The position numbers and the translations under genes were made by a program. From the NCBI GenBank assembly GCA_046736065.1, contig CP159308.1, positions 3,209,173 to 3,233,172 on the forward strand: a stretch of 24,000 nt of DNA, in the 5' to 3' direction. Source of the stretch: Achromobacter sp. M1 (GTDB lineage Bacteria > Pseudomonadota > Gammaproteobacteria > Burkholderiales > Burkholderiaceae_B). The notes under the pieces were generated by a model, which saw nothing but the letters and a program-made list of their open reading frames with translations, did no database searches and was not told the DNA's origin. Positions 1-14,079 of the stretch are shown piece by piece (the first letter of the stretch is position 1; each line of letters begins with the position of its first letter).

Positions 1-2
1 CC

Positions 3-419
3 TTGTGGCTGGTTCCCGCCATGCTGCCCGTCGTGCTGTGGGGCCCCAAGGTCTGGACCGGCCTCTTGTGCGCCGCCTTCCTGATCCTGGCGGCCTGGCG
101 CCTGCGGCGCCGGCCCGGGCTGATCGCGGGCTGGGACACCACCTGGCGGCGCTACTACCTGAAGCACTTCGGCCTGGTGTTCCATCTGGTCGCGCTGAGC
201 TTCGCGGCCGTGCACCTGACCAACTTCGTCTACGCCAAGACGCCGTACTGGCTGCTGCCCCTGCTGGTGCTGCCGCAATGGCTGACCGGCCTGGTGCTGG
301 GCTGGATGCGCGTGCGCCGCGGCATCGGCGCGGCCATCCTGCTGCACTCGGTCTTCAATGCCGGCCCCATTTTGATGATCTGGCTCATCATGCGCTGGCT
401 CCCGGCGGCGGCAAGCTGA
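3..419 (+). CDS. CPBP-family (CAAX/Abi-type) intramembrane protease, C-terminal part; 5' end outside window
   Basis: The ORF is open from the window edge to the stop at 417-419. The sequence is very hydrophobic and multi-TM. It carries the two C-terminal CPBP motifs F-x3-H (FAAVH) and H-x3-N (HSVFN). Confidence 0.55.
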   Translation: MWLVPAMLPVVLWGPKVWTGLLCAAFLILAAWRLRRRPGLIAGWDTTWRRYYLKHFGLVFHLVALSFAAVHLTNFVYAKTPYWLLPLLVLPQWLTGLVLGWMRVRRGIGAAILLHSVFNAGPILMIWLIMRWLPAAAS

Positions 420-470
420 CGGGGTAAACTAGAACGTTAACGATCAATACCGTACTCACACAGGATTCCC

Positions 471-1562
471 ATGGCTCTGCAATGCGGCATCGTCGGCCTG
501 CCCAACGTCGGCAAATCGACACTCTTCAACGCTCTGACCCGCGCCGGCATCGCCGCCGAGAACTACCCGTTCTGCACCATCGAGCCCAACGTCGGCGTGG
601 TGGAAGTGCCGGATCCGCGCCTGCAGAAGCTGGCTGAAATCGTCAAGCCCGAGCGCATCCTGTCGGCCACCGTCGAATTCGTCGACATCGCCGGCCTGGT
701 CGCCGGCGCCAGCAAGGGTGAAGGCCTGGGCAACCAGTTCCTCTCGCACATCCGCGAAACCGACGCCATCGTCAACGTCGTGCGCTGTTTCGAAGATCCC
801 AACGTGATCCACGTCGCCGGCAAGGTCGACCCCATCGCCGACATCGAAGTCATCGAAACCGAACTGGCCCTGGCCGACCTGCAGACCGCCGAAAAGGCCC
901 TGCAGCGCCACCAGAAGACCGCCCGCTCCGGCGACAAGGAATCGCAGCGCATCGTCGCCGTGCTGGAAAAGTGCGTGGCCCAGCTGAACGAAGCCAAGCC
1001 CATCCGCGCGCTCGACCTGTCCACCGAAGAAAAGGCCGACATCGCCCAGCTCTGCTTCATCACCGCCAAGCGCGCCATGTACGTGGGCAACGTCGCCGAC
1101 GACGGCTTCGAGAACAACCCGCTGCTCGACCGCCTGACCGAATTCGCCGCCGCGCGCAACGCGCCCGTGGTCGCCATCTGCGCCGCCATCGAGTCCGAAA
1201 TCGTCGACCTCGACGACGCCGACCGCCAGGCCTTCCTGTCCGACATGGGCATGGAAGAACCGGGCCTGAACCGCCTCATCCGCGCCGCCTTCAAGCTGCT
1301 GGGCCTGCAAACCTACTTCACCGCCGGCGTGAAGGAAGTGCGCGCCTGGACCGTGCCGATCGGCGCCACCGCGCCCCAGGCCGCCGGCGTCATCCACACG
1401 GACTTCGAACGCGGCTTCATCCGCGCCCAGACGATTTCGTATGAAGACTACATCGCCTACAAGGGCGAGCAGGGCGCCAAGGAAGCGGGCAAGATGCGCG
1501 CGGAAGGCAAGGAATACATCGTCCAGGATGGGGATGTGATGAATTTCTTGTTTAACGTCTGA
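471..1562 (+). CDS. ychF: Ribosome-associated ATPase YchF (Obg-like P-loop NTPase)
   Basis: 363-aa ORF with ATG at 471. The N-terminus [23 protein letters not shown] contains the G1 P-loop. The sequence is full-length YchF-like and ends ...[11 protein letters not shown]. Confidence 0.95.
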
Positions 1563-1563
1563 C
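1554..1563. repeat. Putative attL core: AACGTCTGAC (last two ychF codons + stop + 1 nt), repeated at 16099-16108
   Basis: An exact 10-mer occurs at both edges of the block of island-type genes. The integrase gene lies just inside this copy and reads inward. Confidence 0.5.
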
Positions 1564-1692
1564 GATTTTGGCTGGATCTCGGTGGCGCTCAGTAGCGCTT
1601 GGTGGATTGGTTGACCCGTTTGAAATCAATGGGTTGCGTAAACAATACGGTCTGCTGAGCGTTCCTATTGTTCATCGAGGTCTGAAAAATTC

Positions 1693-1734
1693 GGGGGTAG
1701 CGTTGGGGGTACTCATGTTCAACCGTGGGGGTAC
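1693..1734 (+). promoter_or_regulatory. Three direct GGGGGTA(C/G) boxes (1693-1700, 1705-1712, 1727-1734) at the island left end, over the int start region; candidate recombinase arm-type/regulator sites
   Basis: The same box recurs as a pair in the same orientation at the right end of the island (15985-15992, 15997-16003). The 12-bp centre-to-centre spacing matches that of the first two boxes here. Confidence 0.4.
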
Positions 1735-2610
1735 ATCTCCCCGCAGTGGAGTCCAACGGTGCCGAGAATCTACTCACCGACCTCAAGGTCAGGTCGGCCA
1801 AATCGACTGATCGAGACTGGAAACTTTCAGACGGCGGGGGCTTGTTCCTGCTGGTCAAGCCTACCGGCGGCAAGCTCTGGCGGTGGAAGTACCGCCTGCA
1901 AGGCAAGGAGAACCTCTTTGCCATTGGCGGTTTTCCTCAAGTAAGCCTCGCAGAGGCGCGCGCGGCCCGAGAGAAAGCGCGTGCCTTGGTCAAGCAAGGC
2001 ATCCATCCTGCCCATGAGCGGCAACAGATCAAGCAGCGTAACCTTGAAGTGCTGGAGGAACGCAAGCGCGCAAAGGAAAGCTCGTTCGCCAAGGTGGCAC
2101 AGGCGTACTTGGCCGAGATCAAGCCTGTCTTTGCGCTCAGCTCCTACCGGACGAAAGAATCCCGTATCAGGAAGTACCTGTCGCCCAAGTTCGATGGGTT
2201 GCCGATGAGCGACATTGGCGTCAAGCAGATTCGTCCATTGCTGGAGGAGTGCAAGGCCCACGGCGCGTGGGCGGCCATCCATGTCAAAGGCGATCTTTCA
2301 GCCATCTTCGAATTCGCGGTGGTGCGTGGGCTGGTCGAGGCAAATCCAATCCCCAGCCTGCGCGGGCTGCTGCGCGTGCCGTTCAGCGAGAGCAAGGCGG
2401 CGATGACGCGAGAGCAAATCCAGAAGTTCTATCAGGAGTTGCGCGGCTACCGGGGCTATCCGGAAACCTCGCTGTGTCTGCGGCTGATTGCGCTGACCGC
2501 CTGCCGTCCAGGGGAAGCGGCGGATGCCGAGTGGGCCGAGTTCGACTTTGAGGATGCCCTGTGGCGTCGGCCTGCGGCGAAGATGAAAGCGCGGCGCGAC
2601 CATGTCAGCC
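1725..2610 (+). pseudogene. int: P4-type (DUF4102-type N-terminus) tyrosine integrase, N-terminal ~290 codons, interrupted by IS66-family insertion
   Basis: The start is GTG at 1725 or 1746. LTDLKVRSAK..GGLFLLVKPTGGKLWRWKYR..SLAEARAAREKARALVKQGIHP is the canonical P4-like integrase N-terminal domain. The catalytic-domain Arg region is LTACRPGEA. The frame continues as ...RRDHVS|PLSSQAIAVLKDL... when 2611-5031 is removed. Confidence 0.9.
2603..2610. repeat. Target-site duplication TGTCAGCC (left copy) of the IS66-family element
   Basis: An identical 8-mer directly abuts both IS termini (2603-2610 and 5024-5031). An 8-bp TSD is typical of the IS66 family. Confidence 0.9.
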
Positions 2611-2646
2611 GTAAGCGCCTGCTGAACACACCCTTGACGGTTCTGC

Positions 2647-4217
2647 TTATGCAGCAGGTTGCCACCGATGCGGCAGCAGCTCAGCGATCTGGCTGTTTTT
2701 CTGCGTGGGCAGGCGCGTGAGCACGTCCTTCAGATAGGCGTACGGGTCGTGCCCATTGAGCCGCGCCGACTGGATCAGGCTCATAATGGCGGCCGCACGC
2801 TGCCCGCCGCGCAGCGAGCCTGCGAACAACCAGTTCGAGCGCCCGATCGCCCAGGGCCGGATCTGGTTCTCCACCCAGTTGTTGTCGATCGGTGCATCGC
2901 CATCATCAAGATAGCGCGTGAGCGCCTCCCAGCGCTTGAGGCTGTAGTCGATGGCGCGTGCGGTACCCGAGCCATCGGGCACGCGCTGGCGCTGCGCGAT
3001 CAGCCATCGATGCAAGGTCTCGGCGATCGGCCTGGCGCGATCCTGACGTATCCGCCTGCGCTCGTCGGCAGGCAGGTCGGCTACGTCCCGCTCTACGCCG
3101 TAGAGCGCGCCGAACAGATCCAGTGCCTCTCCGGCGATCTGGCTCTGGTGGCTCGCATGCAGGTCATGGAACTTGCGCCTGGCGTGCGCCATGCAGCCAA
3201 GTTCCTTGATGCCGGCAGCGAAGCCGGCCTTGTAGCCCACATAATCGTCGGTCACCAGTTTGCCGCGCCAATCTTGCAGGAACGTGCGGCAGTGCTCACC
3301 GGCCCGGCTTGGCGCGAAGTCGTAGAGCACTGCACGCAGGCTGTCGAACGAGGTCGGTGTGTATGCCCACAAGTAGGCCCGGTGCGTCTTGCCCGCGCCC
3401 GGATTGAGCATCTGCACTGGCGTCTCGTCGGCATGCAGCACGGGTTTGCCCAGCACCTCGGCCTTGAGCGCATCGACCAGCGGCTGCAACCGCAGCCCGC
3501 ATACGCCGACCCACTCGCCCAGCGTCGAGCGCGGCAGCGCCAGACCGGCGCGCGCAAAGATGCCTTCCTGGCGGTATAGCGGCAGGTGGTCGGCGAACTT
3601 GGCCACCAGCACCTGCGCCAGAAGTCCCGCCGTCGGGATGCCCTTGTCGATGACCTGCGCGGGGACCGGCGCCTGCGTGAGCGTCTCGCAGTGCTCGCAC
3701 ACCCATTTGCCGCGGATGTGACGTTCGACCGTAAAGACGCCGGCAGGTAATCCAGCTTCTCGCTGACGTCCTCGCCGATGCGCTTCAAGCCGCAGCCGCA
3801 GCGGCACGTCGTGGACGCCGGTTCGTGATGGATGTCGGTGCGCGGCAGTTCGGGCGGCAACCGCATGCGGCGCGGCGCTTGCGGCGGCGCAGGCTTGGCG
3901 GATATCGCCTCGCGCAGCGCGTTGACTTCCTCTTCGATAGCCGCCATGTCGGCATCCATCGTTTCTTCCAGAAGGCTTGCCTGCGCAGGGTTCAGTTGCT
4001 CGCTGCGCTTGCCGTAACGCCAGCGCTTGTACAGCGCCAGCTCCTGCATGAGCTGGTCGATGTGCGTCTGTTTGAAGTGCAGTACGCGATCCCGCTCGGC
4101 AACCACCGCATCGTGCGCCGCTATCTGGGCGTCACGCGCGGCCACCTCGCCCATCAGGCGTTCGGCCAACGCGCGCAGTTGCTGTGCGTCGAGGTGATCC
4201 AGGGATGCGGTACTCAT
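2647..4217 (-). pseudogene. tnpC: IS66-family transposase TnpC (Orf3), one frame break as sequenced near 3738-3746
   Basis: ATG at 4217 (MSTASLDHLDAQQLRALAERL...). The N-terminal leucine-zipper/zinc-finger part (..CRCGCGLKRIGEDVSEKLDYLP) is in one frame. The remainder (VFTVERHIRGKWVCEHCE...DETPVQML...DDYVGY...CMAHARRKF...NWVENQIRP..GRSNWLFAGS) is in the -1-deletion frame. Confidence 0.88.
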
Positions 4218-4279
4218 GGCCCACAGTATGCCGCAGGGTTCGCAGCGGCGATATTGGCGTCTTGCCGGATTGTCCGGCG

Positions 4280-4615
4280 CTACAACACCGAGATCGCGCC
4301 TGCCGCGCCCACATGCTGCCAAGGCAGGCCCAGCACCAGCGCCTGCCACTGCTCACTGTCGACCGCGACGTGTGGGCCGCGCAGCGCATCGGCCCACACG
4401 AACTTGCCGCGGTTCAGCCGGCGCGCGGCCAGCCACACGCCGATCCCGTCATGTACCAGCACCTTCATGCGGTTGGCGCGCCGGTTTGCGAAGCAATAGG
4501 CGTGGTGCGGACGGGCCGAACCGAACACGGCCACCACCCGGGCCAGTGCCGTCTCGGTGCCGGCGCGCATGTCCAGCGGCTCGGTGGCCAGCCAGATCGC
4601 ATCGACACGGATCAC
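4280..4615 (-). CDS. tnpB: IS66-family accessory protein TnpB (Orf2)
   Basis: VIRVDAIWLATEPLDMRAGTETALARVV...KVLVHDGIGVWLAARRLNRGKFVW is the typical IS66 Orf2 sequence. The GTG start at 4615 overlaps the tnpA stop (GTGA). Confidence 0.88.
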   Translation of the reverse strand: MIRVDAIWLATEPLDMRAGTETALARVVAVFGSARPHHAYCFANRRANRMKVLVHDGIGVWLAARRLNRGKFVWADALRGPHVAVDSEQWQALVLGLPWQHVGAAGAISVL

Positions 4616-4959
4616 CGCAGCCACTCGCGTAGCCACGCCACACATGCGCCCGCTTCACTCACGGGCCATTGCACCGTCGCTTGCGCGGGACCGCGCGACA
4701 AGTGAATCTCGATGTGACGGCCTGACGAGGGCACCGCAGGCAACGCGACCGGCACGAACGTCGGCGCTACAGGGGCCTGCCGTTCGGCCTGGCGAATCCA
4801 CTTATGCACCAGGTTCGCGTTCACGCCGTGTGACAGCGCCACGCCGGCAATGGAGGTTTCTGGCTGGCTGCACTGGGCCACGATCTGGGCCTTCAGCGCC
4901 TTCGGATAAGACCGACGCTTAGGAACCGGCGCTAATTCTGTCTTCGACATGGTGTCCAC
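4612..4959 (-). CDS. tnpA: IS66-family protein TnpA (Orf1, HTH)
   Basis: 115-aa ORF. ...RRSYPKALKAQIVAQCSQPETSIAGVALSHGVNANLVHKWIRQ is the typical IS66 Orf1 HTH region. Confidence 0.85.
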   Translation of the reverse strand: MDTMSKTELAPVPKRRSYPKALKAQIVAQCSQPETSIAGVALSHGVNANLVHKWIRQAERQAPVAPTFVPVALPAVPSSGRHIEIHLSRGPAQATVQWPVSEAGACVAWLREWLR

Positions 4960-5023
4960 CTAAAAGTGGTGGACACTATCGAGGACAACGCACGCGCTCA
5001 ATATGTGTTCGCCGGGCGCTTAC

Positions 5024-5389
5024 TGTCAGCCCGCTATCCTCGCAGGCCATAGCGGTGCTGAAAGATTTGCAGCACATCACGAGTGGCGGACGCTATCTGT
5101 TCCCGCACAGGAGCGGAAAAGGCTTCACCACATCCAACCGGCTGACCTACGCCATGCGCGACATGAACCTGGGCCGGGGTACGACGCCGCATTGCTGGCG
5201 GACGACCTTTTCAACCTGGGCCGATGAGAACGGATACCGGCCTGATGCAATCGAGCGGCAGCTTGCCCCGTGGAAAGCAATAAGGTGCGGGCGACGTACA
5301 ACAAGGCGCTGCTGCTGGATCAGAGAAGGACGCTGTTGCAGGACTGGGCGGACTATCTGAGTGCTGCGGAAGACAGCGGCACAGCATAG
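5024..5389 (+). pseudogene. int: C-terminal part of the same P4-type integrase (starts with the right TSD copy); additional 1-nt frame break near 5266-5270
   Basis: VSPLSSQAIAVLKDLQHITSGGRYLFP...TPHCWRTTFSTWADENGYRPDAIERQLA contains the H-x2-R box. After restoring one base the sequence continues HVESNKVRATYNKALLLDQRRTLLQDWADYLSAAEDSGTA*, with the catalytic Tyr in RATYN, and ends at TAG 5387-5389. Confidence 0.88.
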
Positions 5390-5518
5390 GGACAACTTCG
5401 CCGAGTGTTGCAGAACGAATGGACGGGTACGGCCTTTTCCGGGTAGGGCCATTGTTCCTTGAGTGCCGTTCCCTTGCCATTTTTTCAAGGGCTGGACGCT
5501 AAAAATAGGGTAATCAAG

Positions 5519-5559
5519 CAATAAATGGGGTAATTGTTAATGAATCACCCCATTTATTG
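5519..5559 (-). terminator. Hairpin just 3' of hsdM (12-bp perfect stem CAATAAATGGGG/CCCCATTTATTG, 17-nt loop)
   Basis: A perfect inverted repeat lies 6 nt beyond the hsdM stop, in an AT-rich context. The loop is long and the T-tract is weak, so terminator function is uncertain. Confidence 0.35.
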
Positions 5560-5565
5560 AATCGC

Positions 5566-7200
5566 TCAGGGAAGCAAAGGCAATCCTAGTTCAGCCAGAT
5601 ACTGGTTGTGACGTTTCTTGGCCTCGGCGACCTTCTGCTCGGCGGACACTAGGTCGGCGTGTACGGTCGCCAGGACGATCTCTTCCTCGGTTTCCGCCGT
5701 GCTCACGTAGCGTGAGATGTTGAGGTTGAAATCGTTCTTTTCGATTTCTTCCATGCTTACCCGGCGCGAATAGCGTGGTTCTCCCTTGCGAAACTGATAA
5801 GTGTCGATGATCTTTTCGATGTGCCCGATTTCACCATCAGGCATTTCGTCTGTTCTCAGTAGTCGGTTTTGCCGCTTGCCCTTCTCGAAGTGTTCGGAGG
5901 CGTTAATGAACAACACGTCGTCTGGCTTTTTACACTTCTTCAGCACCAGGAGGCACACTGGGATGCCGGTGGAGAAGAACAGGTTCGCGGGCAGGCCAAT
6001 CACCGTGTCGATATGCCCATCCTTGAGCAACTTGGTGCGGATGCGGGCCTCGGCCCCGCCCCGGAACAGTACGCCGTGGGGTAGGATGATGGCCATTACC
6101 CCGTCTTGCTTCAGGAAGTGGAAGCCGTGCAGCAGGAAGGCGAAGTCCGCTGCCGACTTCGGTGCCAGCCCATAATTCTTGAAGCGGGTGTCTTCGCCCA
6201 GTGCCTCGCTAGGCTCCCAGCGGTAGCTGAACGGCGGGTTGGCAACCACGGCGTCGAACCTAGGCATCTTGGCTGGGTTGGTCTCACGCAGCATGTCCCA
6301 CTCATTGAGAAGGGTGTCACCGTGGAAGATGTCAAACTCCGAGTCCTTCATCCCGTGCAGCAGCATATTCATGCGTGCCAGGTTGTAGGTAGTGATGTTC
6401 TTCTCTTGGCCGTGAATCTTGCCAATGCCATGCGGCCCCATACGGTGGCGCACGTTCAACAGCAAGGAACCTGAGCCACAGGCAAAGTCGAGCACGCTAT
6501 CGAGGTGCGAGCGCTTGCCTGTGGCAGGTTCCTGGCTGTCCAGTGTGACGATGGCCGACAGGACGTCTGAAATACGTTGTGGCGTGTAGAATTCGCCGGC
6601 CTTCTTGCCAGAGCCTGCTGCGAACTGGGCGATCAGGTATTCATAGGCATCACCCAGGGTATCACTGTCGGTGGAGAACTGCCCCAGCCCCTTGGCGATC
6701 TCGGCGATGATCTTGCACAGGCGAGCATTGCGCTCGGCGTAGGTCTTGCCCAGTTTGTCGGAGGCCAAGTTGATCTCCGAGAATAGCCCTCGGAAGGTGC
6801 TGGCGAAAGACTCCTCCTCAATGTATTTGAACCCCTTCTGCAAGGTATGCAGCAGCTCGTCATCCTGCGTGCGCGCCATCTCGGCGATGTTGCCCCACAG
6901 GTATTGGGGTTCGATCACATAATGCACCTTGCGGCGCATCTGCTTCTCGAATTCCTGCACATCGTCCAGGTTGCATTCGTACCAGAGCTGCAACGGTGTA
7001 GAGACTGAGCCATCAATCTGTTCTGGATAGTCTGACCCCAGCTCCTTCTGAGCGGCGGCCTCGTAGTTGTCCGACAGATAGCGCAGGAACAAAAAGGCCA
7101 GCATATAATCGCGGAAATCGTCCGCATTCATCGCACCGCGCAGTTGGTCGGCGATGACCCAGAGGGTCTTGCCCAGTTTTTGTTTTTCGAATTCGGTCAT
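5566..7200 (-). CDS. hsdM: Type I restriction-modification system, DNA methyltransferase subunit HsdM
   Basis: 544 aa. It has an HsdM N-terminal domain (LWVIADQLRGAMNADDFRDYMLAFLFLRYLSD), a SAM motif (DFACGSGSLLL) and the N6-adenine MTase motif IV (VVANPPFSYRW). Confidence 0.95.
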   Translation of the reverse strand: MTEFEKQKLGKTLWVIADQLRGAMNADDFRDYMLAFLFLRYLSDNYEAAAQKELGSDYPEQIDGSVSTPLQLWYECNLDDVQEFEKQMRRKVHYVIEPQYLWGNIAEMARTQDDELLHTLQKGFKYIEEESFASTFRGLFSEINLASDKLGKTYAERNARLCKIIAEIAKGLGQFSTDSDTLGDAYEYLIAQFAAGSGKKAGEFYTPQRISDVLSAIVTLDSQEPATGKRSHLDSVLDFACGSGSLLLNVRHRMGPHGIGKIHGQEKNITTYNLARMNMLLHGMKDSEFDIFHGDTLLNEWDMLRETNPAKMPRFDAVVANPPFSYRWEPSEALGEDTRFKNYGLAPKSAADFAFLLHGFHFLKQDGVMAIILPHGVLFRGGAEARIRTKLLKDGHIDTVIGLPANLFFSTGIPVCLLVLKKCKKPDDVLFINASEHFEKGKRQNRLLRTDEMPDGEIGHIEKIIDTYQFRKGEPRYSRRVSMEEIEKNDFNLNISRYVSTAETEEEIVLATVHADLVSAEQKVAEAKKRHNQYLAELGLPLLP

Positions 7201-8312
7201 GGTGTACCTGCTGTTGCAGCCTCAGCGATCTGAGGGAATAAATCGGGATTGAAGGGGTAGCGGTTCAGGAAGTCATTCAGAATCTTCCTGAAGTAGGCCT
7301 TGTTTTCATCGAGCATCTGCTGCGGCTCATACAGCGAGTAATTGCCGTGGCTGAGGATATTAATCAGGCGTGCGTGCAGAATTCCGTCTGGATCGTCATC
7401 GTCATGCTTGATGCAGGCTGAGAAATTCCTGTGCCCATGGAAACTTGCCGTTTTCTCCAGGATCGTGCGCAGCATGTTGAAGTGATGGGTGAACAAGCGA
7501 TCTTCCTGAGCGGCTTGATACAGCTCGGCTAAGGCGGCAACATGATGAAAGAAGGGCGTGTCTCCCTCTTCAGGCCGTAGCAGATAGCCGCCGCTGGCCG
7601 GGTACTTGTTGACGACGTACCGTCGGGCTTTGCCCAGCTCATTGCATAACACATTGAAGAACAAGGTGTGGTGCGTGGAGATCACCGCTTTGAGTTTGTT
7701 GTCCTGCCTTTTGAGCATTTGCGCCAGGTGATTGGCAACGGCAATGGCATTGTGCTCATCCAGCGAAGAGATTGGGTCGTCGATATAGAGGTACTTCACC
7801 CACTGGTAAGCCTCGATCTCGGGGTCCATTGCCAGTTCGACCACCACCAAGAAGAAACACCAGATAAAGATGTTCTCCTCGCCGCGCGACACCTTGATGT
7901 TGTCGATATTCTGTCCGTCCACCAAGCGCGAAAAGCGCACGGCCCATTCGTTTCCCTGAGTGTCAATGCGGAAATCGAAATCCGCGTAACGCCGCAGCAG
8001 CGGGCGGACGCGGTTGTCCATCTCCAATTCAAACAGGCCCTGGAAAAAACGGGAGTCCTTATTGAGCAGTAAGCGGCGATCCGCATCGCCTTCCAGATCG
8101 TTGTTCCAGTGAAACAGATCTTCGGTGAAGGCGTTGAAATACAGCGTATCGCGGGTCTCGTTCTGTTTGCCCATGTCCTTGAAAGCCATGGACAGCCGTG
8201 TCTTGCCAGTGCCGTTGTACGCATAGAGCAGGACGGTTTTCTTGTTTTCCAGCTCGCCGCGCAGATGAGCCGCCAGCTCCGGCAGTTCGGCAAAGGGCTG
8301 GCCTGGTCTCAT
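7197..8312 (-). CDS. PrrC-like protein: ABC/AAA_13-type NTPase N-domain plus C-terminal putative anticodon-nuclease domain
   Basis: 371 aa. NTPase motifs are Walker A AYNGTGKT, LYFNAFTEDLF, the signature-like VSRGEE, Walker B/D-loop YLYIDDPISSLD and the switch STHH. The C-terminus has FNMLRTILEKTASF (R-x3-E) and LINILSHGNY (S-H). ATGA overlaps link it to hsdS upstream and hsdM downstream. Confidence 0.6.
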   Translation of the reverse strand: MRPGQPFAELPELAAHLRGELENKKTVLLYAYNGTGKTRLSMAFKDMGKQNETRDTLYFNAFTEDLFHWNNDLEGDADRRLLLNKDSRFFQGLFELEMDNRVRPLLRRYADFDFRIDTQGNEWAVRFSRLVDGQNIDNIKVSRGEENIFIWCFFLVVVELAMDPEIEAYQWVKYLYIDDPISSLDEHNAIAVANHLAQMLKRQDNKLKAVISTHHTLFFNVLCNELGKARRYVVNKYPASGGYLLRPEEGDTPFFHHVAALAELYQAAQEDRLFTHHFNMLRTILEKTASFHGHRNFSACIKHDDDDPDGILHARLINILSHGNYSLYEPQQMLDENKAYFRKILNDFLNRYPFNPDLFPQIAEAATAGTP

Positions 8313-9498
8313 GCCGGCACCTCATCCGACACCGGAAACATTTGCCGAATCAAGCCCTTTTTGAAGGCCTTGAGGACGTCGACCTTTTGGCTTTGAGTGG
8401 CGATCAGTTTGTCAATCGATATCAGGCAGTCGGCGATTCGATCCTGCTCAGGGGGAGATGGGCATTGCAAGGAAATCTTTGCAAAGTCGTCGTAGTAAAG
8501 GCGCAATCTGTCCTCGGTCAACCCCCTAGAATGCGCAGTCAAGACTTGAAGTGACTGTGGTCGTTTTAATAGGTAATAGAAAAGAGGGAATTCACGCCCT
8601 GTGGCTCTAGAACAATGTAAGCAGGGCTAACCATGCAATCTTCCGGTGCGATTCCCAACGCCCCTTGCCACATCCGCATCATGTTATAAGCAAGATCGCC
8701 AGTGCGCACTGTCTTGTTTGCGCTTGCCTCGGCAATATCATCTATTTTTCGATCTAATGAAGCACGTGGCACCAAGCCGTCTGTCATTGTTACCGAGTAA
8801 ATTGGCAACCCCGGCCTGCCCCGCTCAATCCGGTTCAAAAATAGTTCTCCAGCGGTGACTTTTGACCAACTGCCAGCGCTGCGAAACTCCGGGAATCTCA
8901 GCCGTGGCACGACTTCGCCGTCACGGGGGAAAAGCTGCTGCAACAGGCCTTTCTTGTGGGTTATGAGGGTGTCTAGCTTCCGATTTTCTGTCGTAATTAG
9001 CTCATCAAGAGAAGACAGGCAGTCGGCAATTTTTTGTTGCTCTCCTGGGCACGGAGTCGAGATCGGCATGGGTGCGAATTTGGAGATCCAATGCCGCTCA
9101 TGAGCACCAACTTCATATGAAGTATTCTGCAGGAGTTCATACAGGAACTTGATGTTTTCTCCATTTTTAGCCTGCAATATTTTCATTGCCGACGACTTGG
9201 CCTTGAACGGAAAATCAACGAATTGCGTGGCTGTGGTGAAATCGTCGAAAATTATTACAGGCAACCCTTGAGAAAAAATACCGTGCTTTTCATTTGTATA
9301 TCCCAATACAAATGTCTTGCCAGCTGTCAAAACTGGAGTGTCATAATTTTCGCTGTAGCTGGTATCAGAAACCAGATAATCCGTTGGCTGCTGGTAATCC
9401 AAACACTCCCCGAGCGTTGTCGCCTTCCATTCACCAGCATCTCGAAACTCCGGAAACCGCAACCGTGGTACCAAAGGCTGTTTTTCACTTCCACTCAT
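8309..9498 (-). pseudogene. hsdS: Type I R-M specificity subunit HsdS; single 1-nt frame break as sequenced in an A4/T4 run at 8580-8583 (probably artefactual)
   Basis: The two-TRD architecture shows repeated conserved regions. These are VPRLRFPEFRDAGEW.. and VPRLRFPEFRSAGSW.., then PGEQQKIADCLSSLDELITTENRKLDTLITHKKGLLQQLFP and PPEQDRIADCLISIDKLIATQSQKVDVLKAFKKGLIRQMFP. Adding one T gives a continuous ..NSLFFYYLLKRPQSLQVLTAHSRG.. Confidence 0.9.
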
Positions 9499-9872
9499 GC
9501 CATTTGCTCCTGCGACCGTGCGAGGATCATCTTGAAGAGGTTCCCAGCCCGGTCGCCGATCAGATCAATCTGCGGCCAGGCCCGTAAATCACGCAGCAAG
9601 CTGCCTCCCAGCCCGCGATGCGGCAGGAGCTTGGCGGCAAAGGACGCCAGAATCGAGTTGCGCATATTGCTGTTGACTGCTTTGATGTTTTCGATGGTCA
9701 GGTTATTGGACGGATGGCCGAGGCTGATGCCCGTTTTCTTCAACGTGCTTCCATAGTTGCTGTTGTAGAAGTTGTCATCGCCCGTCAACTTGAATTCGCG
9801 GTTTGCGTGGGTGTGCAAATGGACATCTGCGCGAGTCCAATGCGCGCCTTGTGTAAAAACGGCTCCCATCAT
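9495..9872 (-). CDS. Hypothetical 125-aa protein (orf125) wedged between hsdR and hsdS; N-terminal H-x-H motif (GAHWTRADVHLHTH)
   Basis: The ORF exactly fills the hsdR-hsdS gap, with ATGA overlaps at both ends (9869-9872 and 9495-9498). Its base composition matches the operon. No family was recognised. Confidence 0.6.
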   Translation of the reverse strand: MMGAVFTQGAHWTRADVHLHTHANREFKLTGDDNFYNSNYGSTLKKTGISLGHPSNNLTIENIKAVNSNMRNSILASFAAKLLPHRGLGGSLLRDLRAWPQIDLIGDRAGNLFKMILARSQEQMA

Positions 9873-12847
9873 CGTCCCTCCTCATAGGCGGCGAGGCCAG
9901 CAATGTCTTGGCCTTGGGCAAGCTTGTGTAGTAGCGGCGTCAGCTCCTCCATCAGCGCCAGTTCCTTCTGCGTCCGCGCTTTCCAACTGAGATTCAACGG
10001 GGCCATCAGATCGGAAAGGCGCTCACCGTCGAAGATGCGGCGGTGCAGGATTTCATTGACAAACTCCTGTAGGGCGTCAGGCGCGAGCGCGTGGCGGCTG
10101 GCCATGTCGTTGATTTCCCGCGTCTTCTTTTCTGCCTTGAAGTGGTCGTATCCGGCACGAATCTGCCGCTCATCCAGGGCTTCATTGACCGGCAAGCTGC
10201 GGATGTACTCGGCAATAACCTCCCGCTCGTCGATAAACTTGGCATCGGACTGGATGAGACCTATGAGCTGCTCCCGATTCATCGTGAGCTTGCCGGGCTT
10301 CTGCTGGGTCAGTTTCGCAATCAGGCCCATGATGTAGTCGTAGTCGATCACCGACGAGGCGAAGAGTACAAACTCGAAGTCAAGCTGCTGTACATCGGGT
10401 GGAGCCTGATCGCCCTCCTTGCTCTGTATTTCTTTCAGATGCTTGGCGGTTTCAAGGTAGGTACTGCGGAAGCTCTGCAACTGGTCTGGCGACAGGATGG
10501 TGTCAATGCGCTCTTTCTGCTCTGGTGCCAAATCGGTGTACTGATCGAGCTGGGTTTTGAGCCGTTGCACCTCTTTGAAACGGTTGACGAACTCGATGCG
10601 GGCGGTATCCCCCTTGAGGTTGTATACCGCCTCGGGTTCGCAAATGAGGTTCTTGTCCGTCATGAAGCGCGACATGCCTGCCACGGCGGCTTCGTATTTG
10701 TGGATGACCTCTGCTGCGGATTCCACTAGCCAGATTTCGCGAGGGTTGTCGATCTTTTCTCCGGAAAAGAGCGCAATCGCTTCCTCAACCGGATTCTGTT
10801 GCTGGCGGAAGTCGAGAATATTGCCGTAAGGTTTGCTATCGTTGAGCACGCGATTGGTGCGCGAAAACGCCTGGATCAGGCCGTGGTACTTGAGGTTCTT
10901 GTCCACGTACAGGGTGTTGAGGTACTTGGAGTCGAAGCCGGTGAGTAGCATGTCCACCACGATGGTGACGTCGATTTTCTGCGCGGCGGGCAGGTCGGCG
11001 TTGGGATACTGCTGATCCTTGATGCGCTTTTGCACATCCTGGTAGTACAGGTCGAACTCACTGATACGGTGGTTGGTACCAAAGCGTGCGTTGTAATCGG
11101 CGACGATGCGAGTGAGTGCCGCCTTCTTGCCCTCTGGGTCTTTCTTGTTGTCTTCTTGTTCTTGTGGCAGGTCTTCCTGAATCTGCTGCACGTCCTTGTT
11201 GCCGTCAGCTGGTGGGGAGAACACGCAGGCGACATTCAACGGACGGAATTCGGGGTCTTGCTCTGTTTTTTGGTTCTGAATGCGCGCGAACAGCTCAAAG
11301 TATTCAATGGCATCGTTGATGCTGGCCGTTGCCAGCACCGCATTGAACTTACGACCATTGGTCGCAGTGTCGTGCTTGGCGAGGATAGTCTCGATGACCT
11401 TGGCTTTGGCTACGCCTTCGCCGGGCTTGGGCGGGTTCTTGCCTTCAGGCTTGAAGTAGTCCACGTGGAAGCGCAGGACATTGCGATCTTCAATGGCGTG
11501 GGTGATGGTGTATTGGTGCAGACAGCGCTGGAATAGATCGTCGGTTGTGCGATAACTGGCCTGCTGACCTTCGATCTGCTGATAGCTGGCGTTCTTCTCG
11601 AATATGGGTGTGCCGGTAAAGCCAAAGAGCTGGGCGTTAGGGAAGAACTCCTTGATGGCTTTGTGGTTGTCGCCGAACTGCGAACGGTGGCATTCATCAA
11701 AGATGAACACCATGCGCTGGTTGCGTAGCGGTTCCAAACGCTCTTTGTAATTGCGCTTGTTGGCCCCGTCCAGGGCAAGGCCCAGCTTCTGAATGGTCGT
11801 GACTATCACCTTGTCGGCGTAGTCATCCGACAGCAGGCGGCGCACCAGTGTTTCGGTATTGGTGTTTTCCTCAACGCAACCTTCCTGGAAGCGGTTGAAT
11901 TCCTCGCGAGTCTGCCGATCCAAGTCTTTGCGGTCGACCACGAACAGACATTTGTCGATGTCTGGATTGTCTTTGAGCAGGGTAGAAGCCTTGAAGGAGG
12001 TGAGAGTCTTGCCCGAGCCGGTGGTATGCCAGATATAGCCGTTTCCGCAGTTCTGGTGGATGCAATCCACGATAGCTTTGACGGCATAGATTTGGTATGG
12101 CCGCATCATCAACAGCTTTTGTTCACTGGCCACTAGCACCATGTAGCGGCTGATCATCTGGCCAAGGATGCACTTGGCCAAAAACTTCTCGGCAAAGCTA
12201 TCGAGCAGGGTAACTTTCTTATTGTCTTCGCTGGCGAACTGATAAATCGGCAGAAAACGCTCATCCGCGTTGAAGCTGAAGTGGCGCGCGTTGTTGTTGG
12301 CGAAGTACCAGGTATCGGTGCGGTTGCTGACGATGAATAGCTGCAAAAAGCACAGCAGCGTTTTGCCGTAACCGTTGCCGGGAACGGCCTTGTAATCAAC
12401 GATCTGCTGCATCGCCCGGCGCGGGCTGACGGCCAGGGTCTTTAGCTCAATTTGCACCACCGGCACCCCATTGATGAGCAGCATCACGTCGTAGCGGTGA
12501 TGGCTGTTTTCGGTGTTGATGCGTAGCTGGTTGATGACCTCGAAGTCGTTCTTACACCAATCCCGGATGTTGACCAAGGTGTAGTTCAGCGGCGTGCCAT
12601 CGTCGCGTTCGAAGCTGTTGATGTTGCGTAGCGTTTGGGCAGCGTTGTAAACATCGTCTGTCACGATGCTTTCCCGCAGGCGCTGGAACTCGCTGTCGGT
12701 CAGGCGCACCCGGTTGAGTGCCTCAAACTTGGCGCGGAAGTTGGCCTCTAGCGCGGTACGGTCTCGGATATCAGGGCGATAGGTGTACTTGAGGTCACCA
12801 AGCTTGGCGATCAGATCGAGTTCGATTTGTTGTTCTGATGTTGTCAT
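9869..12847 (-). CDS. hsdR: Type I restriction enzyme, restriction/helicase subunit HsdR
   Basis: ATG at 12847 is preceded by GAGGAAAGAG (MTTSEQQIELDLIAKLG...). It has a PD-(D/E)xK nuclease region (YDVMLLINGVPVVQIELK), helicase motif I (HTTGSGKTLTSF) and motif II (FIFDECHRSQ). Length is 992 aa. The ORF-track extension to 13075 is rejected. Confidence 0.95.
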   Translation of the reverse strand: MTTSEQQIELDLIAKLGDLKYTYRPDIRDRTALEANFRAKFEALNRVRLTDSEFQRLRESIVTDDVYNAAQTLRNINSFERDDGTPLNYTLVNIRDWCKNDFEVINQLRINTENSHHRYDVMLLINGVPVVQIELKTLAVSPRRAMQQIVDYKAVPGNGYGKTLLCFLQLFIVSNRTDTWYFANNNARHFSFNADERFLPIYQFASEDNKKVTLLDSFAEKFLAKCILGQMISRYMVLVASEQKLLMMRPYQIYAVKAIVDCIHQNCGNGYIWHTTGSGKTLTSFKASTLLKDNPDIDKCLFVVDRKDLDRQTREEFNRFQEGCVEENTNTETLVRRLLSDDYADKVIVTTIQKLGLALDGANKRNYKERLEPLRNQRMVFIFDECHRSQFGDNHKAIKEFFPNAQLFGFTGTPIFEKNASYQQIEGQQASYRTTDDLFQRCLHQYTITHAIEDRNVLRFHVDYFKPEGKNPPKPGEGVAKAKVIETILAKHDTATNGRKFNAVLATASINDAIEYFELFARIQNQKTEQDPEFRPLNVACVFSPPADGNKDVQQIQEDLPQEQEDNKKDPEGKKAALTRIVADYNARFGTNHRISEFDLYYQDVQKRIKDQQYPNADLPAAQKIDVTIVVDMLLTGFDSKYLNTLYVDKNLKYHGLIQAFSRTNRVLNDSKPYGNILDFRQQQNPVEEAIALFSGEKIDNPREIWLVESAAEVIHKYEAAVAGMSRFMTDKNLICEPEAVYNLKGDTARIEFVNRFKEVQRLKTQLDQYTDLAPEQKERIDTILSPDQLQSFRSTYLETAKHLKEIQSKEGDQAPPDVQQLDFEFVLFASSVIDYDYIMGLIAKLTQQKPGKLTMNREQLIGLIQSDAKFIDEREVIAEYIRSLPVNEALDERQIRAGYDHFKAEKKTREINDMASRHALAPDALQEFVNEILHRRIFDGERLSDLMAPLNLSWKARTQKELALMEELTPLLHKLAQGQDIAGLAAYEEGR

Positions 12848-12914
12848 GACTCTTTCCTCAAAGACGCAAACGGTTTGCCATGGCCGTTGCATGGGCGGAT
12901 AAAAGCCGTGGTGC

Positions 12915-13124
12915 TCATGTGTGTTGACCCCCTGACTCAGTGGCATCTTCGTCAGCCCCGCCTGCGCGCACCCACTCGTCCACTTCGGACAGCTGAAACT
13001 TCCACAGTCGCCCCACACGATGCGCTGGTAGGCCCTTGCGCTCTCTCCAGCGATAAACAGTGTCTTTGGCGACACCCAGATGCTGGGCCACGTGTTCAGC
13101 AGTCACCCACGGTTCAGTGCTCAT
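12915..13124 (-). CDS. Excisionase-family (MerR-superfamily-like) helix-turn-helix DNA-binding protein
   Basis: 69 aa. WVTAEHVAQHLGVAKDTVYRWRERKGLPAHRVGRLWKFQLSEVDEWV matches the excisionase-family HTH pattern (..EaA.yLgvs..tvYrw...g.lPa.rvGr.w.f...ev..Wv). It lies 67 nt upstream of hsdR on the same strand. Confidence 0.85.
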   Translation of the reverse strand: MSTEPWVTAEHVAQHLGVAKDTVYRWRERKGLPAHRVGRLWKFQLSEVDEWVRAGGADEDATESGGQHT

Positions 13125-13216
13125 GTCGATGGCGCTCTGGAATTATGTTTTAAAGTCGTCTTAAATCGTTTGAAGTCTACCATTGAAATTCTATTTAAGC
13201 CCCCGCCTGGCCAACC
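13125..13216 (-). promoter_or_regulatory. AT-rich upstream region of the HTH-hsdR transcription unit, with tandem TTAAA(G)TCGT repeats (13150-13160, 13161-13170)
   Basis: This is a 92-bp AT-rich intergenic stretch in otherwise GC-rich flanks. A possible -10 element, CATAAT, lies on the minus strand. The promoter assignment is not verified. Confidence 0.3.
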
Positions 13217-14079
13217 TCAAACTCCCAGATAGATCGACGTCACCGTCAACCGCTCATGTCCGAGCTCACGGCTGATCTGCTGGCGGGTGTGTCTATCGAC
13301 CAAGCGCTGCGACAGCCCTAGTTGAGCCTTGCCAGGTCCGCCGGCTGCTGGTGACTTCCACCCCGTCAATGCTTCATATCGCATCTGTGCATACCGATGC
13401 CGCAGGCCATGCATATTGCTCAGGCTTGCAGCCTTGCACTGCCCATCGTAGGCGCGCCGCTGCTGGATGAAGGTCTTGTCTGCCGGGATCAATGATCCTC
13501 TGCCCGCCAGGCGGTGTGCTGCGTGGAGCACGTCGCGTTGCTCTGTCGTGGTGATGGGCACAGTTCGCTCCCGACCGCCCTTGGTCCACGATCCCTTGAG
13601 GGCGATGTTGTCCCCCGATCCGCGTAACTGGGCTGGAACTTGATCGCTTCCTCCCGACGCAATCCGAAGGCGGCCTGTAGCTGAAGGCTCATGCGTACGT
13701 GCGCGTCGGTGACCTGTTCAAGACGTGTGCCCAGTTCCTGGGCCTTGCTGATGTTGGTCACATAGTGGCGCTCGGCCACGCCGAGTTGCGTGTTGTCCGT
13801 CGGCAGGATGCCGGCCTTGCCGATCTTCTCTGCCCACCAGCGCAGGTGAGAGAGCCGATTCTTGATGGTGCCGGACGACAAGCCTTCTCCCTGCCAGCGA
13901 TCCAGCAGCGTCTGGACGTGCTTGCCCTTGAGCGACGAGGCTTTCATCTGCCGGAAACCGGCCTCCCGCAGTTGCCGCGCGGCCAGCGACAGCGAGCGCA
14001 TCCGGTCGGCCTGTGTGGTGTAGCTGCCGTCTCGGTTGCGCTGGCATAGCTGCCGCAGGGTGTAGGTCAAGTCGTCCAT
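13217..14079 (-). pseudogene. Second tyrosine recombinase (phage-integrase family with Integrase_1-like N-domain); 1-nt frame break in a C5/G5 run at 13612-13616
   Basis: ATG at 14079 is preceded by GGAGA. The N-terminal part is MDDLTYTLRQLCQRNRDGSYTTQADR...GTIKNRLSHLRWWAEKIG. After restoring one G the sequence continues ..SYADRGDNIALKGSWTKGGRERTVPITTTEQRD... The catalytic boxes are HGLRHRYA and LGHERLTVTSIYLG. Confidence 0.8.

What the first reader, a model, noticed from the sequence alone, without database searches (positions are those of the whole stretch)
7197..8312. PrrC-like anticodon-nuclease candidate between hsdS and hsdM
The N-terminal two thirds carry ABC/AAA_13-type NTPase motifs. 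These are Walker A AYNGTGKT, LYFNAFTEDLF, the signature-like VSRGEE, Walker B plus D-loop YLYIDDPISSLD, and the switch His in STHH. The C-terminal ~140 aa carry N-x2-R-x3-E (FNMLRTILEKTASF), with the His of N-x2-S-H (LINILSHGNY) 40 residues after the Arg. These are the same residue types and order as the Arg/Glu/His triad reported for the E. coli PrrC nuclease domain, where the Arg-to-His spacing is 36. Size (371 vs about 396 aa) and residence inside a type I R-M operon also fit. PrrC is known to be held latent by its R-M partner and to cleave tRNA-Lys when phage inhibits restriction. The comparison is by eye and from memory, not an alignment. The target tRNA and the activation cue are unknown.
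Basis: partly seen in the sequence, partly recalled or inferred. Interest (0 to 1): 0.65.

Follow-up and report, generated by a model that had tools for sequence, protein, structure and literature searches.

The report
Ordinary PrrC anticodon nuclease gene
The gene is a clear member of the well-known PrrC family: a latent tRNA-cutting "backup" enzyme that sits inside a DNA restriction-modification operon. Standard defence-gene profiles and some public annotations already recognise it, so it is correct but not new.

Summary
Window 7197-8312 (minus strand) is an intact 371-aa ORF, and every quoted motif is where stated. It scores 470.8 bits (E 7.5e-142) on the PADLOC PrrC profile. The E. coli prototype, EcoPrrC, recovered here from a plasmid, scores 489.5 bits. 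The two proteins align end to end (32% identity, E 3e-51). Walker A, the PrrC box, the ABC signature, Walker B/D-loop and the switch His all line up. The catalytic residues map as R320/E324/H356 to R282/E286/H322, and R349/N352 map to R315/N318. These columns are invariant or nearly so in 70 diverse relatives. The gene sits in a translationally coupled cassette, hsdR-orf125-hsdS-prrC-hsdM, and 80 related loci from many phyla keep the same gene order. A published relative with that order, PrrC170 (about 58% identical), is toxic, depletes tRNA-Lys and defends against phages T1 and T7. Proteins about 90% identical are already deposited as "anticodon nuclease". The most likely function is a latent tRNA-Lys anticodon nuclease that is released when the partner type I R-M enzyme is inhibited. 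The target and trigger of this particular protein remain inferred. Novelty is low. Side observations are an hsdS frameshift (probably a sequencing error), a trlF-trlG deletion relic (orf125), and an IS66 insertion in the island's integrase.

The parts
7197..8312 (-). prrC: 371-aa PrrC-family anticodon nuclease (stop codon at 7197-7199)
   Evidence: ORF. PADLOC PrrC 470.8 bits. Pfam AAA_13 46.9 bits. 32% identity to EcoPrrC, E 3e-51, full length.
7629..8312 (-). N-terminal Rad50/SMC-type ABC NTPase domain (residues 1-228)
   Evidence: AlphaFold model, mean pLDDT 77. Best Foldseek matches are Rad50 and SMC heads. Motif alignment to EcoPrrC.
8199..8222 (-). Walker A, AYNGTGKT (K37/T38; R39 follows). 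Equivalent to EcoPrrC K46/T47/R48.
8094..8144 (-). PrrC box, LYFNAFTEDLFHWNNDL (E64, W69, N70, N71). Equivalent to EcoPrrC E88, W93, D94, N95.
   Evidence: The motif is described as unique to PrrC in PMC1484252.
7875..7898 (-). ABC signature region, IKVSRGEE (K140, R143). Equivalent to EcoPrrC K168, K171.
7758..7793 (-). Walker B plus D-loop, YLYIDDPISSLD (D178, D179, S182, S183, D185)
7668..7679 (-). Switch/H-loop, STHH (T213, H214). Equivalent to EcoPrrC T250, H251.
7200..7628 (-). C-terminal, mainly helical nuclease domain (residues 229-371)
   Evidence: Secondary structure of the models. Alignment to the EcoPrrC C-domain. The fold search of this domain alone was not significant.
7542..7574 (-). 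Stretch equivalent to the EcoPrrC Lys-anticodon-recognising peptide: PEEGDTPFFHH against KYGDSNKSFSYH. D251 = D287, F254 = F292, H256 = Y294, H257 = H295.
   Evidence: LARP sequence from PMC1950546
7452..7484 (-). HHFNMLRTILEK: H277, R282 and E286 are equivalent to EcoPrrC H315, R320 and E324. T283 stands where EcoPrrC has N321.
7347..7370 (-). RLINILSH: R315, N318 and H322 are equivalent to EcoPrrC R349, N352 and H356 (HEPN Rx6H motif)
   Evidence: HEPN assignment from PMC3710099
5566..7200 (-). hsdM, type I methyltransferase subunit (544 aa). Its start overlaps the prrC stop (ATGA).
   Evidence: Pfam HsdM_N and N6_Mtase. PADLOC MTase_I. 36% identity to EcoprrI HsdM. Junction.
8309..9498 (-). 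hsdS, specificity subunit. Read as 310 aa plus 77 aa because one base is missing from a homopolymer at 8584. It is intact (396 aa) in the near-identical loci L002 and L003.
9495..9872 (-). orf125: in-frame relic joining the N-terminus of trlF to the C-terminus of trlG. A 3.4-kb deletion relative to the E. coli and Enterobacter versions of the cassette produced it.
9869..12847 (-). hsdR, type I restriction subunit (992 aa) with an EcoR124_C C-terminal domain
   Evidence: Pfam. PADLOC REase_I 1135.6 bits. 33% identity to EcoprrI HsdR. Gene call in L002 and L003.
12915..13124 (-). Small HTH_17 gene upstream of hsdR. It is a possible regulator of the cassette.

Best explanation
The ORF encodes a PrrC-family anticodon nuclease. 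It has an N-terminal Rad50/ABC-type NTPase domain that acts as the regulatory switch and a C-terminal helical RNase domain. The gene is co-transcribed and translationally coupled with a type I (EcoR124/IC-like) restriction-modification system, in the order hsdR-(orf125)-hsdS-prrC-hsdM.

Family membership and conservation of the active-site residues are shown here. The working model is inferred from EcoPrrC and PrrC170:
1. The protein is held inactive by the HsdRMS complex.
2. When a phage anti-restriction factor disables that complex, NTP binding and hydrolysis by the head-to-tail dimerised N-domains switch on the C-domain.
3. The C-domain cuts the anticodon loop of a tRNA, most probably tRNA-Lys, by metal-independent transesterification. 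R282/E286, R315/N318/H322, H257 and H277 are the likely catalytic residues.
4. Translation stops and the infection is aborted.
For: - **Profile scores.** PADLOC PrrC: 470.8 bits (E 7.5e-142), covering residues 9-356; EcoPrrC scores 489.5 bits on the same model. Pfam AAA_13: 46.9 bits here against 49.2 for EcoPrrC, cutoff 36.
- **Alignment to the prototype.** Full-length BLASTP to a protein that matches EcoPrrC at 53 of 53 published residues gives 32% identity, E 3e-51.
- **Essential residues.** Of the 33 residues essential in EcoPrrC (PMC3025547 Table 1), 24 are identical here. Three more carry a substitution that was tolerated experimentally (K171R, D223E, H225N).
- **Conservation.** R282 is conserved in 70/70, E286 in 69/70, H322 in 69/70, H277 in 70/70 and H257 in 68/70 diverse family representatives. 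All of them are conserved in 120/120 close homologues.
- **Selection.** dN/dS is about 0.05.
- **Structure.** The model of the N-domain matches Rad50/SMC heads.
- **Operon.** There are 4-nt ATGA overlaps at all four gene junctions.
- **Gene order.** The order hsdR-hsdS-prrC-hsdM recurs in essentially all 80 related loci, across many phyla.
- **Experimental relative.** PrrC170 of Klebsiella quasipneumoniae has the same four-gene order and is about 58% identical. It arrests growth when induced, depletes tRNA-Lys in tRNA-seq, and protects against T1 and T7 unless a phage tRNA-Lys is supplied.
- **Existing annotation.** Proteins about 90% identical are deposited as "anticodon nuclease".
Against: - No activity was or could be measured here.
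- Six positions essential in EcoPrrC differ: D94 to N70, N224 to H187, D276 to S240, H297 to A259, K299 to L261 and N321 to T283. In EcoPrrC, D94N and all tested N321 substitutions abolish toxicity. These columns do vary naturally across the family, and N70 and T283 are shared by the nearest clade.
- The stretch equivalent to the Lys-anticodon-recognising peptide is two residues shorter and only partly conserved, so the target could differ.
- Xanthomonas and Neisseria PrrCs were not toxic in yeast.
- As read, hsdS is frameshifted. If that is real, the masking partner could not assemble.
- The trigger of this subfamily has not been identified.
- The fold search with the C-domain alone found nothing significant.
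Confidence: 0.85

Rival explanations
1. It is an active PrrC-family nuclease, but it cuts a tRNA or RNA other than tRNA-Lys, or responds to a different cue than inhibition of its R-M partner.
For: The specificity stretch differs from EcoPrrC: two residues are missing, with Y294 to H, H297 to A and K299 to L. The 2006 study predicted that homologues lacking the E. coli consensus target other RNAs. Stp, the T4 activator, is tied to EcoprrI, which is only 33-36% identical to this R-M system.
Against: D251 (= D287, the residue implicated in Lys-anticodon recognition), F254 and H257 are conserved. PrrC170 has the same shortened stretch (YGDT--ARFYH) and still depletes tRNA-Lys.
Confidence: 0.15
2. 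The cassette in this genome is decaying. hsdS is really frameshifted, and PrrC is either inactive or no longer regulated, so the gene is a relic in an immobilised island.
For: One base is missing at 8584, which splits hsdS. The trlF-trlG genes have been deleted, leaving orf125. The island's integrase is interrupted by an IS66 element. N70 stands at the position where D94N inactivates EcoPrrC.
Against: All seven indels against L002 are single-base losses in homopolymer runs, which is typical of long-read assembly error. L002 and L003 encode the identical PrrC with an intact 396-aa HsdS. prrC, hsdM and hsdR are intact, and prrC is under strong purifying selection. N70 is shared by 29 of 120 close homologues.
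Confidence: 0.08
3. It is not PrrC but another AAA_13/ABC-ATPase defence protein (RloC, PDC-S06, LmuB-like), or a non-nuclease accessory ATPase of the R-M enzyme.
For: The Pfam hit is only to the generic AAA_13 family. Weaker PADLOC hits to PDC-S06 and LmuB exist. The C-domain model has no significant structural match.
Against: The PrrC profile scores 470.8 bits against 61.9 or less for every other model. The protein is 371 aa, and its N-domain model shows a compact ABC head without a long helical insertion. The PrrC box and all catalytic C-domain residues are present.
Confidence: 0.02

Closest known systems
EcoPrrC (E. coli prr locus; 396 aa; linked to the type IC enzyme EcoprrI)
   Same: - Two-domain plan: ABC-type NTPase plus C-terminal anticodon nuclease.
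- Walker A, PrrC box, signature, Walker B/D-loop and switch His are all present.
- The catalytic residues R320/E324/H356, plus R349, N352, H295 and H315, are all present.
- The gene lies immediately downstream of hsdS inside a type I R-M operon.
- Both score alike on the PADLOC PrrC and Pfam AAA_13 profiles.
   Different: - Only 32% identical and 25 residues shorter, mainly through a shorter acidic linker after Walker A.
- Four extra residues lie between E286 and H322.
- The Lys-anticodon peptide equivalent is shorter and diverged.
- D94, N224, D276, H297, K299 and N321 are replaced.
- The operon order is hsdR-hsdS-prrC-hsdM instead of hsdM-hsdS-prrC-hsdR.
- The R-M subunits are only 33-36% identical to EcoprrI.
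PrrC170 system of Klebsiella quasipneumoniae (Azam et al. 2024, PMC11555353)
   Same: It has the same four-gene order, hsdR-hsdS-prrC-hsdM. It is about 58% identical over 358 residues (E 2e-147, using a machine-read copy of the published alignment). It has the same shortened specificity stretch and the same catalytic residues. It is the closest experimentally characterised relative: toxic on induction, depletes tRNA-Lys, and defends against T1 and T7.
   Different: It belongs to a different clade (58% identity). PrrC170 keeps D at the D94 position and N at the N321 position, where the window protein has N70 and T283. The published sequence was read by machine from a figure and contains errors, so the identity figure is approximate.
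RloC
   Same: It is a distant homologue with an ABC ATPase plus a HEPN-type anticodon nuclease and the same Arg/Glu/His residues (PMC3025547, PMC3710099).
   Different: RloC carries a Rad50-like region with a zinc hook, excises the wobble nucleotide and is rarely linked to R-M (abstract of PMC3458546). The window protein is 371 aa, its N-domain model is a compact ABC head without a long helical insertion, and it is embedded in an R-M operon.

Membership tests
PrrC anticodon nuclease | Significant match to a PrrC-specific profile, comparable to that of the prototype | tested here: met
   PADLOC PDLC02360: 470.8 bits for the window protein against 489.5 bits for EcoPrrC. The next best model scores 61.9 bits.
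PrrC anticodon nuclease | N-terminal ABC-type NTPase motifs (Walker A K/T/R, signature K-x2-K/R-G-E-E, Walker B DD, D-loop SSLD, switch His) | tested here: met
   K37/T38/R39, K140/R143, D178/D179, S182/S183/D185 and T213/H214 align with EcoPrrC K46/T47/R48, K168/K171, D215/D216, S219/S220/D222 and T250/H251. The model matches Rad50/SMC heads.
PrrC anticodon nuclease | PrrC box, a motif unique to the family (EcoPrrC residues 68-94; PMC1484252) | tested here: met
   LYFNAFTEDLFHWNNDL aligns with LYYNAFTEDLFYWDNDL. E64, W69 and N71 are conserved. D94 is replaced by N70, as in 14 of 70 family members.
PrrC anticodon nuclease | C-domain Arg-Glu-His triad (R320, E324, H356), plus R349/N352 (Rx6H), H295 and H315 | tested here: met
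   R282, E286, H322, R315, N318, H257 and H277 align with these residues. The triad columns are conserved in 70/70, 69/70 and 69/70 sequences and in 120/120 of the close clade.
PrrC anticodon nuclease | Genetic linkage to a type I R-M locus related to EcoprrI | tested here: met
   The gene lies between hsdS and hsdM with overlapping stop and start codons. HsdR carries EcoR124_C. HsdM and HsdR are 36% and 33% identical to those of the prr locus over their full length. The same order is seen in 80 loci.
PrrC anticodon nuclease | Lys-anticodon-recognising peptide, KYGDSNKSFSY (present only in a subset of PrrCs) | tested here: inconclusive
   Partly conserved: G250-D251-T252, F254 and H256 against G-D-S, F292 and Y294, with two residues missing. 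The literature says the motif is absent from many bona fide PrrCs.
PrrC anticodon nuclease | Cleaves tRNA-Lys 5' of the wobble base; latent until the R-M partner is inhibited; needs GTP hydrolysis and dTTP | not testable with these tools
   Known only by analogy with EcoPrrC and PrrC170.
HEPN superfamily (C-domain) | Four-helix up-down fold with an Rx4-6H motif | tested here: inconclusive
   The R315-x6-H322 motif is present and the domain is predicted to be helical. Foldseek with the C-domain model found nothing below E = 1; HEPN proteins (8yuf) and AbiV (9bj7) appear only among non-significant matches. The HEPN assignment rests on PMC3710099.
RloC | Rad50-like region with a zinc hook (PMC3458546) | tested here: not met
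   The protein is 371 aa, and its N-domain model shows a compact ABC head without a long helical insertion. The only strong profile hit is to PrrC.

The most novel reading that the evidence does not exclude
The very widespread hsdR-hsdS-prrC-hsdM clade to which this gene belongs could differ functionally from the E. coli prototype. It might have a different RNA target or cleavage site, set by its shortened specificity stretch and the T283 and N70 substitutions. It might also respond to a different trigger, for example DNA-mimic anti-restriction proteins such as Ocr or ArdA rather than a Stp-like peptide. The N70 subclade could be a naturally retuned switch.
Probability: 0.15. Interest if true: 0.35.

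Novelty: already known. Interest (0 to 1): 0.15.

Why it matters
It matters little for discovery. PrrC has been a textbook example of backup, abortive-infection immunity linked to restriction-modification since 1990. Defence-system profiles call this gene automatically, and near-identical proteins are already labelled "anticodon nuclease". The practical value is annotation: this Achromobacter island carries a two-layer defence cassette, DNA restriction plus tRNA cleavage. The survey also shows that the hsdR-hsdS-prrC-hsdM arrangement is kept in 80 related loci from many phyla. No PrrC structure has been solved and no trigger is known for this clade, so a well-behaved member of it could be useful for structural work.

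Tried and rejected
- **Solved structures.** A sequence search of the PDB with the protein and with a family profile found no solved PrrC or RloC. It found only a weak Rad50 Walker-B match, so no superposition on an experimental PrrC structure was possible.
- **C-domain fold.** Folding the C-domain alone (pLDDT 70) and searching the PDB by fold gave no significant match. The HEPN fold could therefore not be confirmed structurally.
- **NCBIfam.** It has no PrrC model that the protein reaches; only noise hits were returned.
- **Promoters and terminators.** The scan of 5000-13800 was uninformative: 1 promoter-like site against 4.4 expected, and terminator-like sites at the chance level.
- **tRNA genes.** None was found in the window, so no attachment-site tRNA could be named.
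- **RloC, PDC-S06 and LmuB readings.** Considered and rejected on score, size and motifs.
- **Pseudogene reading of prrC.** Considered and rejected: the ORF is intact and dN/dS is 0.05.
Full report
**Observation**

The stated coordinates, 7197-8312, are exactly one minus-strand ORF. It starts with ATG and encodes 371 aa plus a stop codon.
- AYNGTGKT at residues 31-38
- LYFNAFTEDLF at 57-67
- VSRGEE at 141-146
- YLYIDDPISSLD at 174-185
- STHH at 212-215
- FNMLRTILEKTASF at 278-291
- LINILSHGNY at 316-325

The flanking genes are hsdS upstream (Pfam Methylase_S, PADLOC Specificity_I) and hsdM downstream (HsdM_N plus N6_Mtase).

**Family assignment**

The protein scores 470.8 bits (E 7.5e-142) on the PADLOC PrrC profile, over residues 9-356. 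The next best model scores 61.9 bits. It passes the Pfam AAA_13 gathering threshold, with 46.9 bits against a cutoff of 36.

To compare it with the real prototype, I looked for EcoPrrC in public records. A tblastn search of plasmids found a 396-aa "anticodon nuclease" on an E. coli P1-like IncY plasmid, in the classical order hsdM-hsdS-prrC-hsdR. That protein matches all 53 residue identities listed for EcoPrrC in Table 1 of Meineke et al. 2010 (PMC3025547). It also carries KYGDSNKSFSY at residues 284-294, so it can stand in for EcoPrrC. On the same profiles it scores 489.5 bits (PADLOC PrrC) and 49.2 bits (AAA_13). By profile score the window protein is therefore as much a PrrC as the prototype.

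**Residue-level comparison**

BLASTP of the window protein against EcoPrrC gives 32% identity, E 3e-51, over residues 10-354. A MAFFT alignment with 68 full-length cluster representatives from a 1.84-billion-protein search gives this mapping:

| EcoPrrC | Window protein | Region |
|---|---|---|
| K46/T47/R48 | K37/T38/R39 | Walker A |
| E88/W93/N95 | E64/W69/N71 | PrrC box |
| K168/K171 | K140/R143 | ABC signature |
| D215/D216 | D178/D179 | Walker B |
| S219/S220/D222 | S182/S183/D185 | D-loop |
| T250/H251 | T213/H214 | switch His |
| H295 | H257 | C-domain |
| H315 | H277 | C-domain |
| R320/E324 | R282/E286 | triad |
| R349/N352/H356 | R315/N318/H322 | Rx6H motif |

The spacing of 40 instead of 36 comes from a four-residue insertion. 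Across the 70 aligned sequences the triad columns are R 70/70, E 69/70 and H 69/70. In 120 close homologues they are invariant.

Six positions that are essential in EcoPrrC differ here: D94 to N70, N224 to H187, D276 to S240, H297 to A259, K299 to L261 and N321 to T283. All six columns vary naturally across the family. N70 is shared by 29 of 120 close relatives and T283 by 113 of 120. dN/dS against the E. coli and Enterobacter orthologues is about 0.05, so the gene is under strong purifying selection.

**Structure**

An AlphaFold2 model (mean pLDDT 77, pTM 0.65) shows an α/β N-domain followed by a helical C-domain. Its best Foldseek matches in the PDB are Rad50 and SMC ATPase heads, as expected for PrrC (PMC3710099).

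No PrrC or RloC structure exists in the PDB copy searched. The C-domain modelled alone found no significant fold match. The HEPN assignment therefore rests on the R315-x6-H322 motif and on the literature.

**Context**

The cassette reads, on the minus strand:
- an HTH_17 gene (12915-13124)
- hsdR (9869-12847)
- orf125 (9495-9872)
- hsdS (8309-9498)
- prrC (7197-8312)
- hsdM (5566-7200)

The hsdR/orf125, orf125/hsdS, hsdS/prrC and prrC/hsdM junctions are all 4-nt ATGA overlaps. HsdR carries the EcoR124_C domain, and the R and M subunits are 33% and 36% identical to those of the prr locus.

A scan of one genome per species returned 80 loci encoding relatives 53-91% identical. They come from Proteobacteria, Firmicutes, Bacteroidota, Acidobacteriota, Cyanobacteria, Verrucomicrobiota and other groups. 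Essentially all of them have the order hsdR-hsdS-prrC-hsdM. This order differs from the classical hsdM-hsdS-prrC-hsdR, but in both arrangements prrC directly follows hsdS.

**Experimental precedent**

Azam et al. 2024 (PMC11555353) cloned "PrrC170" from Klebsiella quasipneumoniae as a four-gene unit, "HsdR, HsdS, PrrC, and HsdM". They showed growth arrest on induction of PrrC, depletion of tRNA-Lys by tRNA-seq, and defence against T1 and T7 that a phage tRNA-Lys relieved.

The machine-read sequence from their Supplementary Fig. 12 is about 58% identical to the window protein over 358 residues (E 2e-147) and has the same shortened specificity stretch. The aspartate implicated in Lys-anticodon recognition (D287) is conserved as D251.

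**Mechanism**

Family membership, intact catalytic and NTPase residues, purifying selection and operon coupling with a complete type I R-M system are shown here. The following steps are inferred:
1. The HsdRMS complex holds the protein latent.
2. A phage anti-restriction factor relieves that hold.
3. NTP-dependent dimerisation of the N-domains activates the C-domain.
4. The C-domain cleaves the tRNA-Lys anticodon loop by metal-independent transesterification.
5. Translation arrest aborts the infection.

The trigger for this clade is unknown. T7, which PrrC170 restricts, is the source of Ocr, a DNA mimic that blocks type I R-M. That makes DNA-mimic anti-restriction proteins a reasonable candidate, but this is speculation.

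**Status in this genome**

The exact protein is on record in an NCBI genome contig of 6.2 Mb and in two metagenome-derived assemblies. The flanking ychF product belongs to a cluster named from Achromobacter. The cassette has 51-58% G+C against 61-69% in the flanks, so it was acquired horizontally.

Relative to the near-identical loci L002 and L003, the window lacks one base in a homopolymer at 8584, which splits hsdS. All seven indels against L002 are single-base losses in homopolymer runs, so assembly error is the likely cause. The island's P4-type integrase is interrupted by an IS66-family element (2611-5023) with GTAAGCGCC termini and an 8-bp duplication, TGTCAGCC.

**Verdict**

The gene is an ordinary member of a known, profile-detectable defence family. 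Proteins 90% identical are already annotated as anticodon nuclease. Novelty and interest are low.

Noticed in passing
window 8584 (hsdS, 8309-9498, minus strand): One base is missing from an A/T homopolymer relative to L002 and L003, which splits hsdS into 310-aa and 77-aa ORFs. All seven indels against L002 (16001, 15621, 15300, 15151, 13617, 8584, 5269) are single-base losses in homopolymer runs. This points to long-read assembly error rather than real pseudogenes.
   Followed up: yes
window 9495-9872 (orf125); compare L001 3911-7695: orf125 is an in-frame fusion. Its first ~48 residues are the N-terminus of a TrlF-family PHP/SMC-like ATPase, and its last 77 residues are the C-terminus of an AlbA_2/HATPase_c_4 protein (TrlG of the Photorhabdus temperature-restriction locus). 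E. coli AR_0137 and Enterobacter (L005) carry both full genes between hsdR and hsdS; Pseudogulbenkiania (L007) has trlF but only the trlG C-terminus. The window has a 3.4-kb deletion. L011 also keeps only the trlG C-terminal fragment in front of hsdS, so that fragment may be retained for hsdS expression.
   Followed up: partly
window 2611-5023, with flanks 1758-2610 and 5024-~5389: An IS66-family element carries three overlapping minus-strand ORFs (4612-4959, 4280-4645, and a transposase ORF ending at 2647). Its termini are GTAAGCGCC and GGCGCTTAC. It is inserted in the island's P4-type tyrosine integrase gene with an 8-bp target duplication, TGTCAGCC. The integrase is intact in L002.
   Followed up: yes
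window 14900-15250: There is a dense patch of about 20 substitutions against L002, inside a 380-aa gene with no Pfam match next to an Integrase_1-family gene. The rest of the 13-kb match is almost identical. This could be a recombination patch or a fast-evolving gene.
   Followed up: no
related loci L009, L010, L019, L028, L030, L062, L068, L072 and others: About 1 kb of extra sequence lies between prrC and hsdM in many relatives. In some (L009, L011) several kb lie between hsdS and prrC. [quoted passage not shown] The window has no such insert.
   Followed up: no
L004 (E. coli plasmid CP057875.1), 4277-12064: A protein matching the classical EcoPrrC at all 53 published residues is carried with its hsdM-hsdS-hsdR genes on a P1-like IncY phage-plasmid. 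The locus sits next to phd/doc and a gene annotated as 3'-phosphatase.
   Followed up: no
L001 (E. coli AR_0137 chromosome) 1-11712; plasmid hits H22-H28: The ~90%-identical version of the cassette in Enterobacteriaceae lies next to a TnsD-family Tn7-like transposition gene on the chromosome. It also occurs on large Klebsiella and E. coli plasmids, including conjugative ones, which suggests how it spreads.
   Followed up: no
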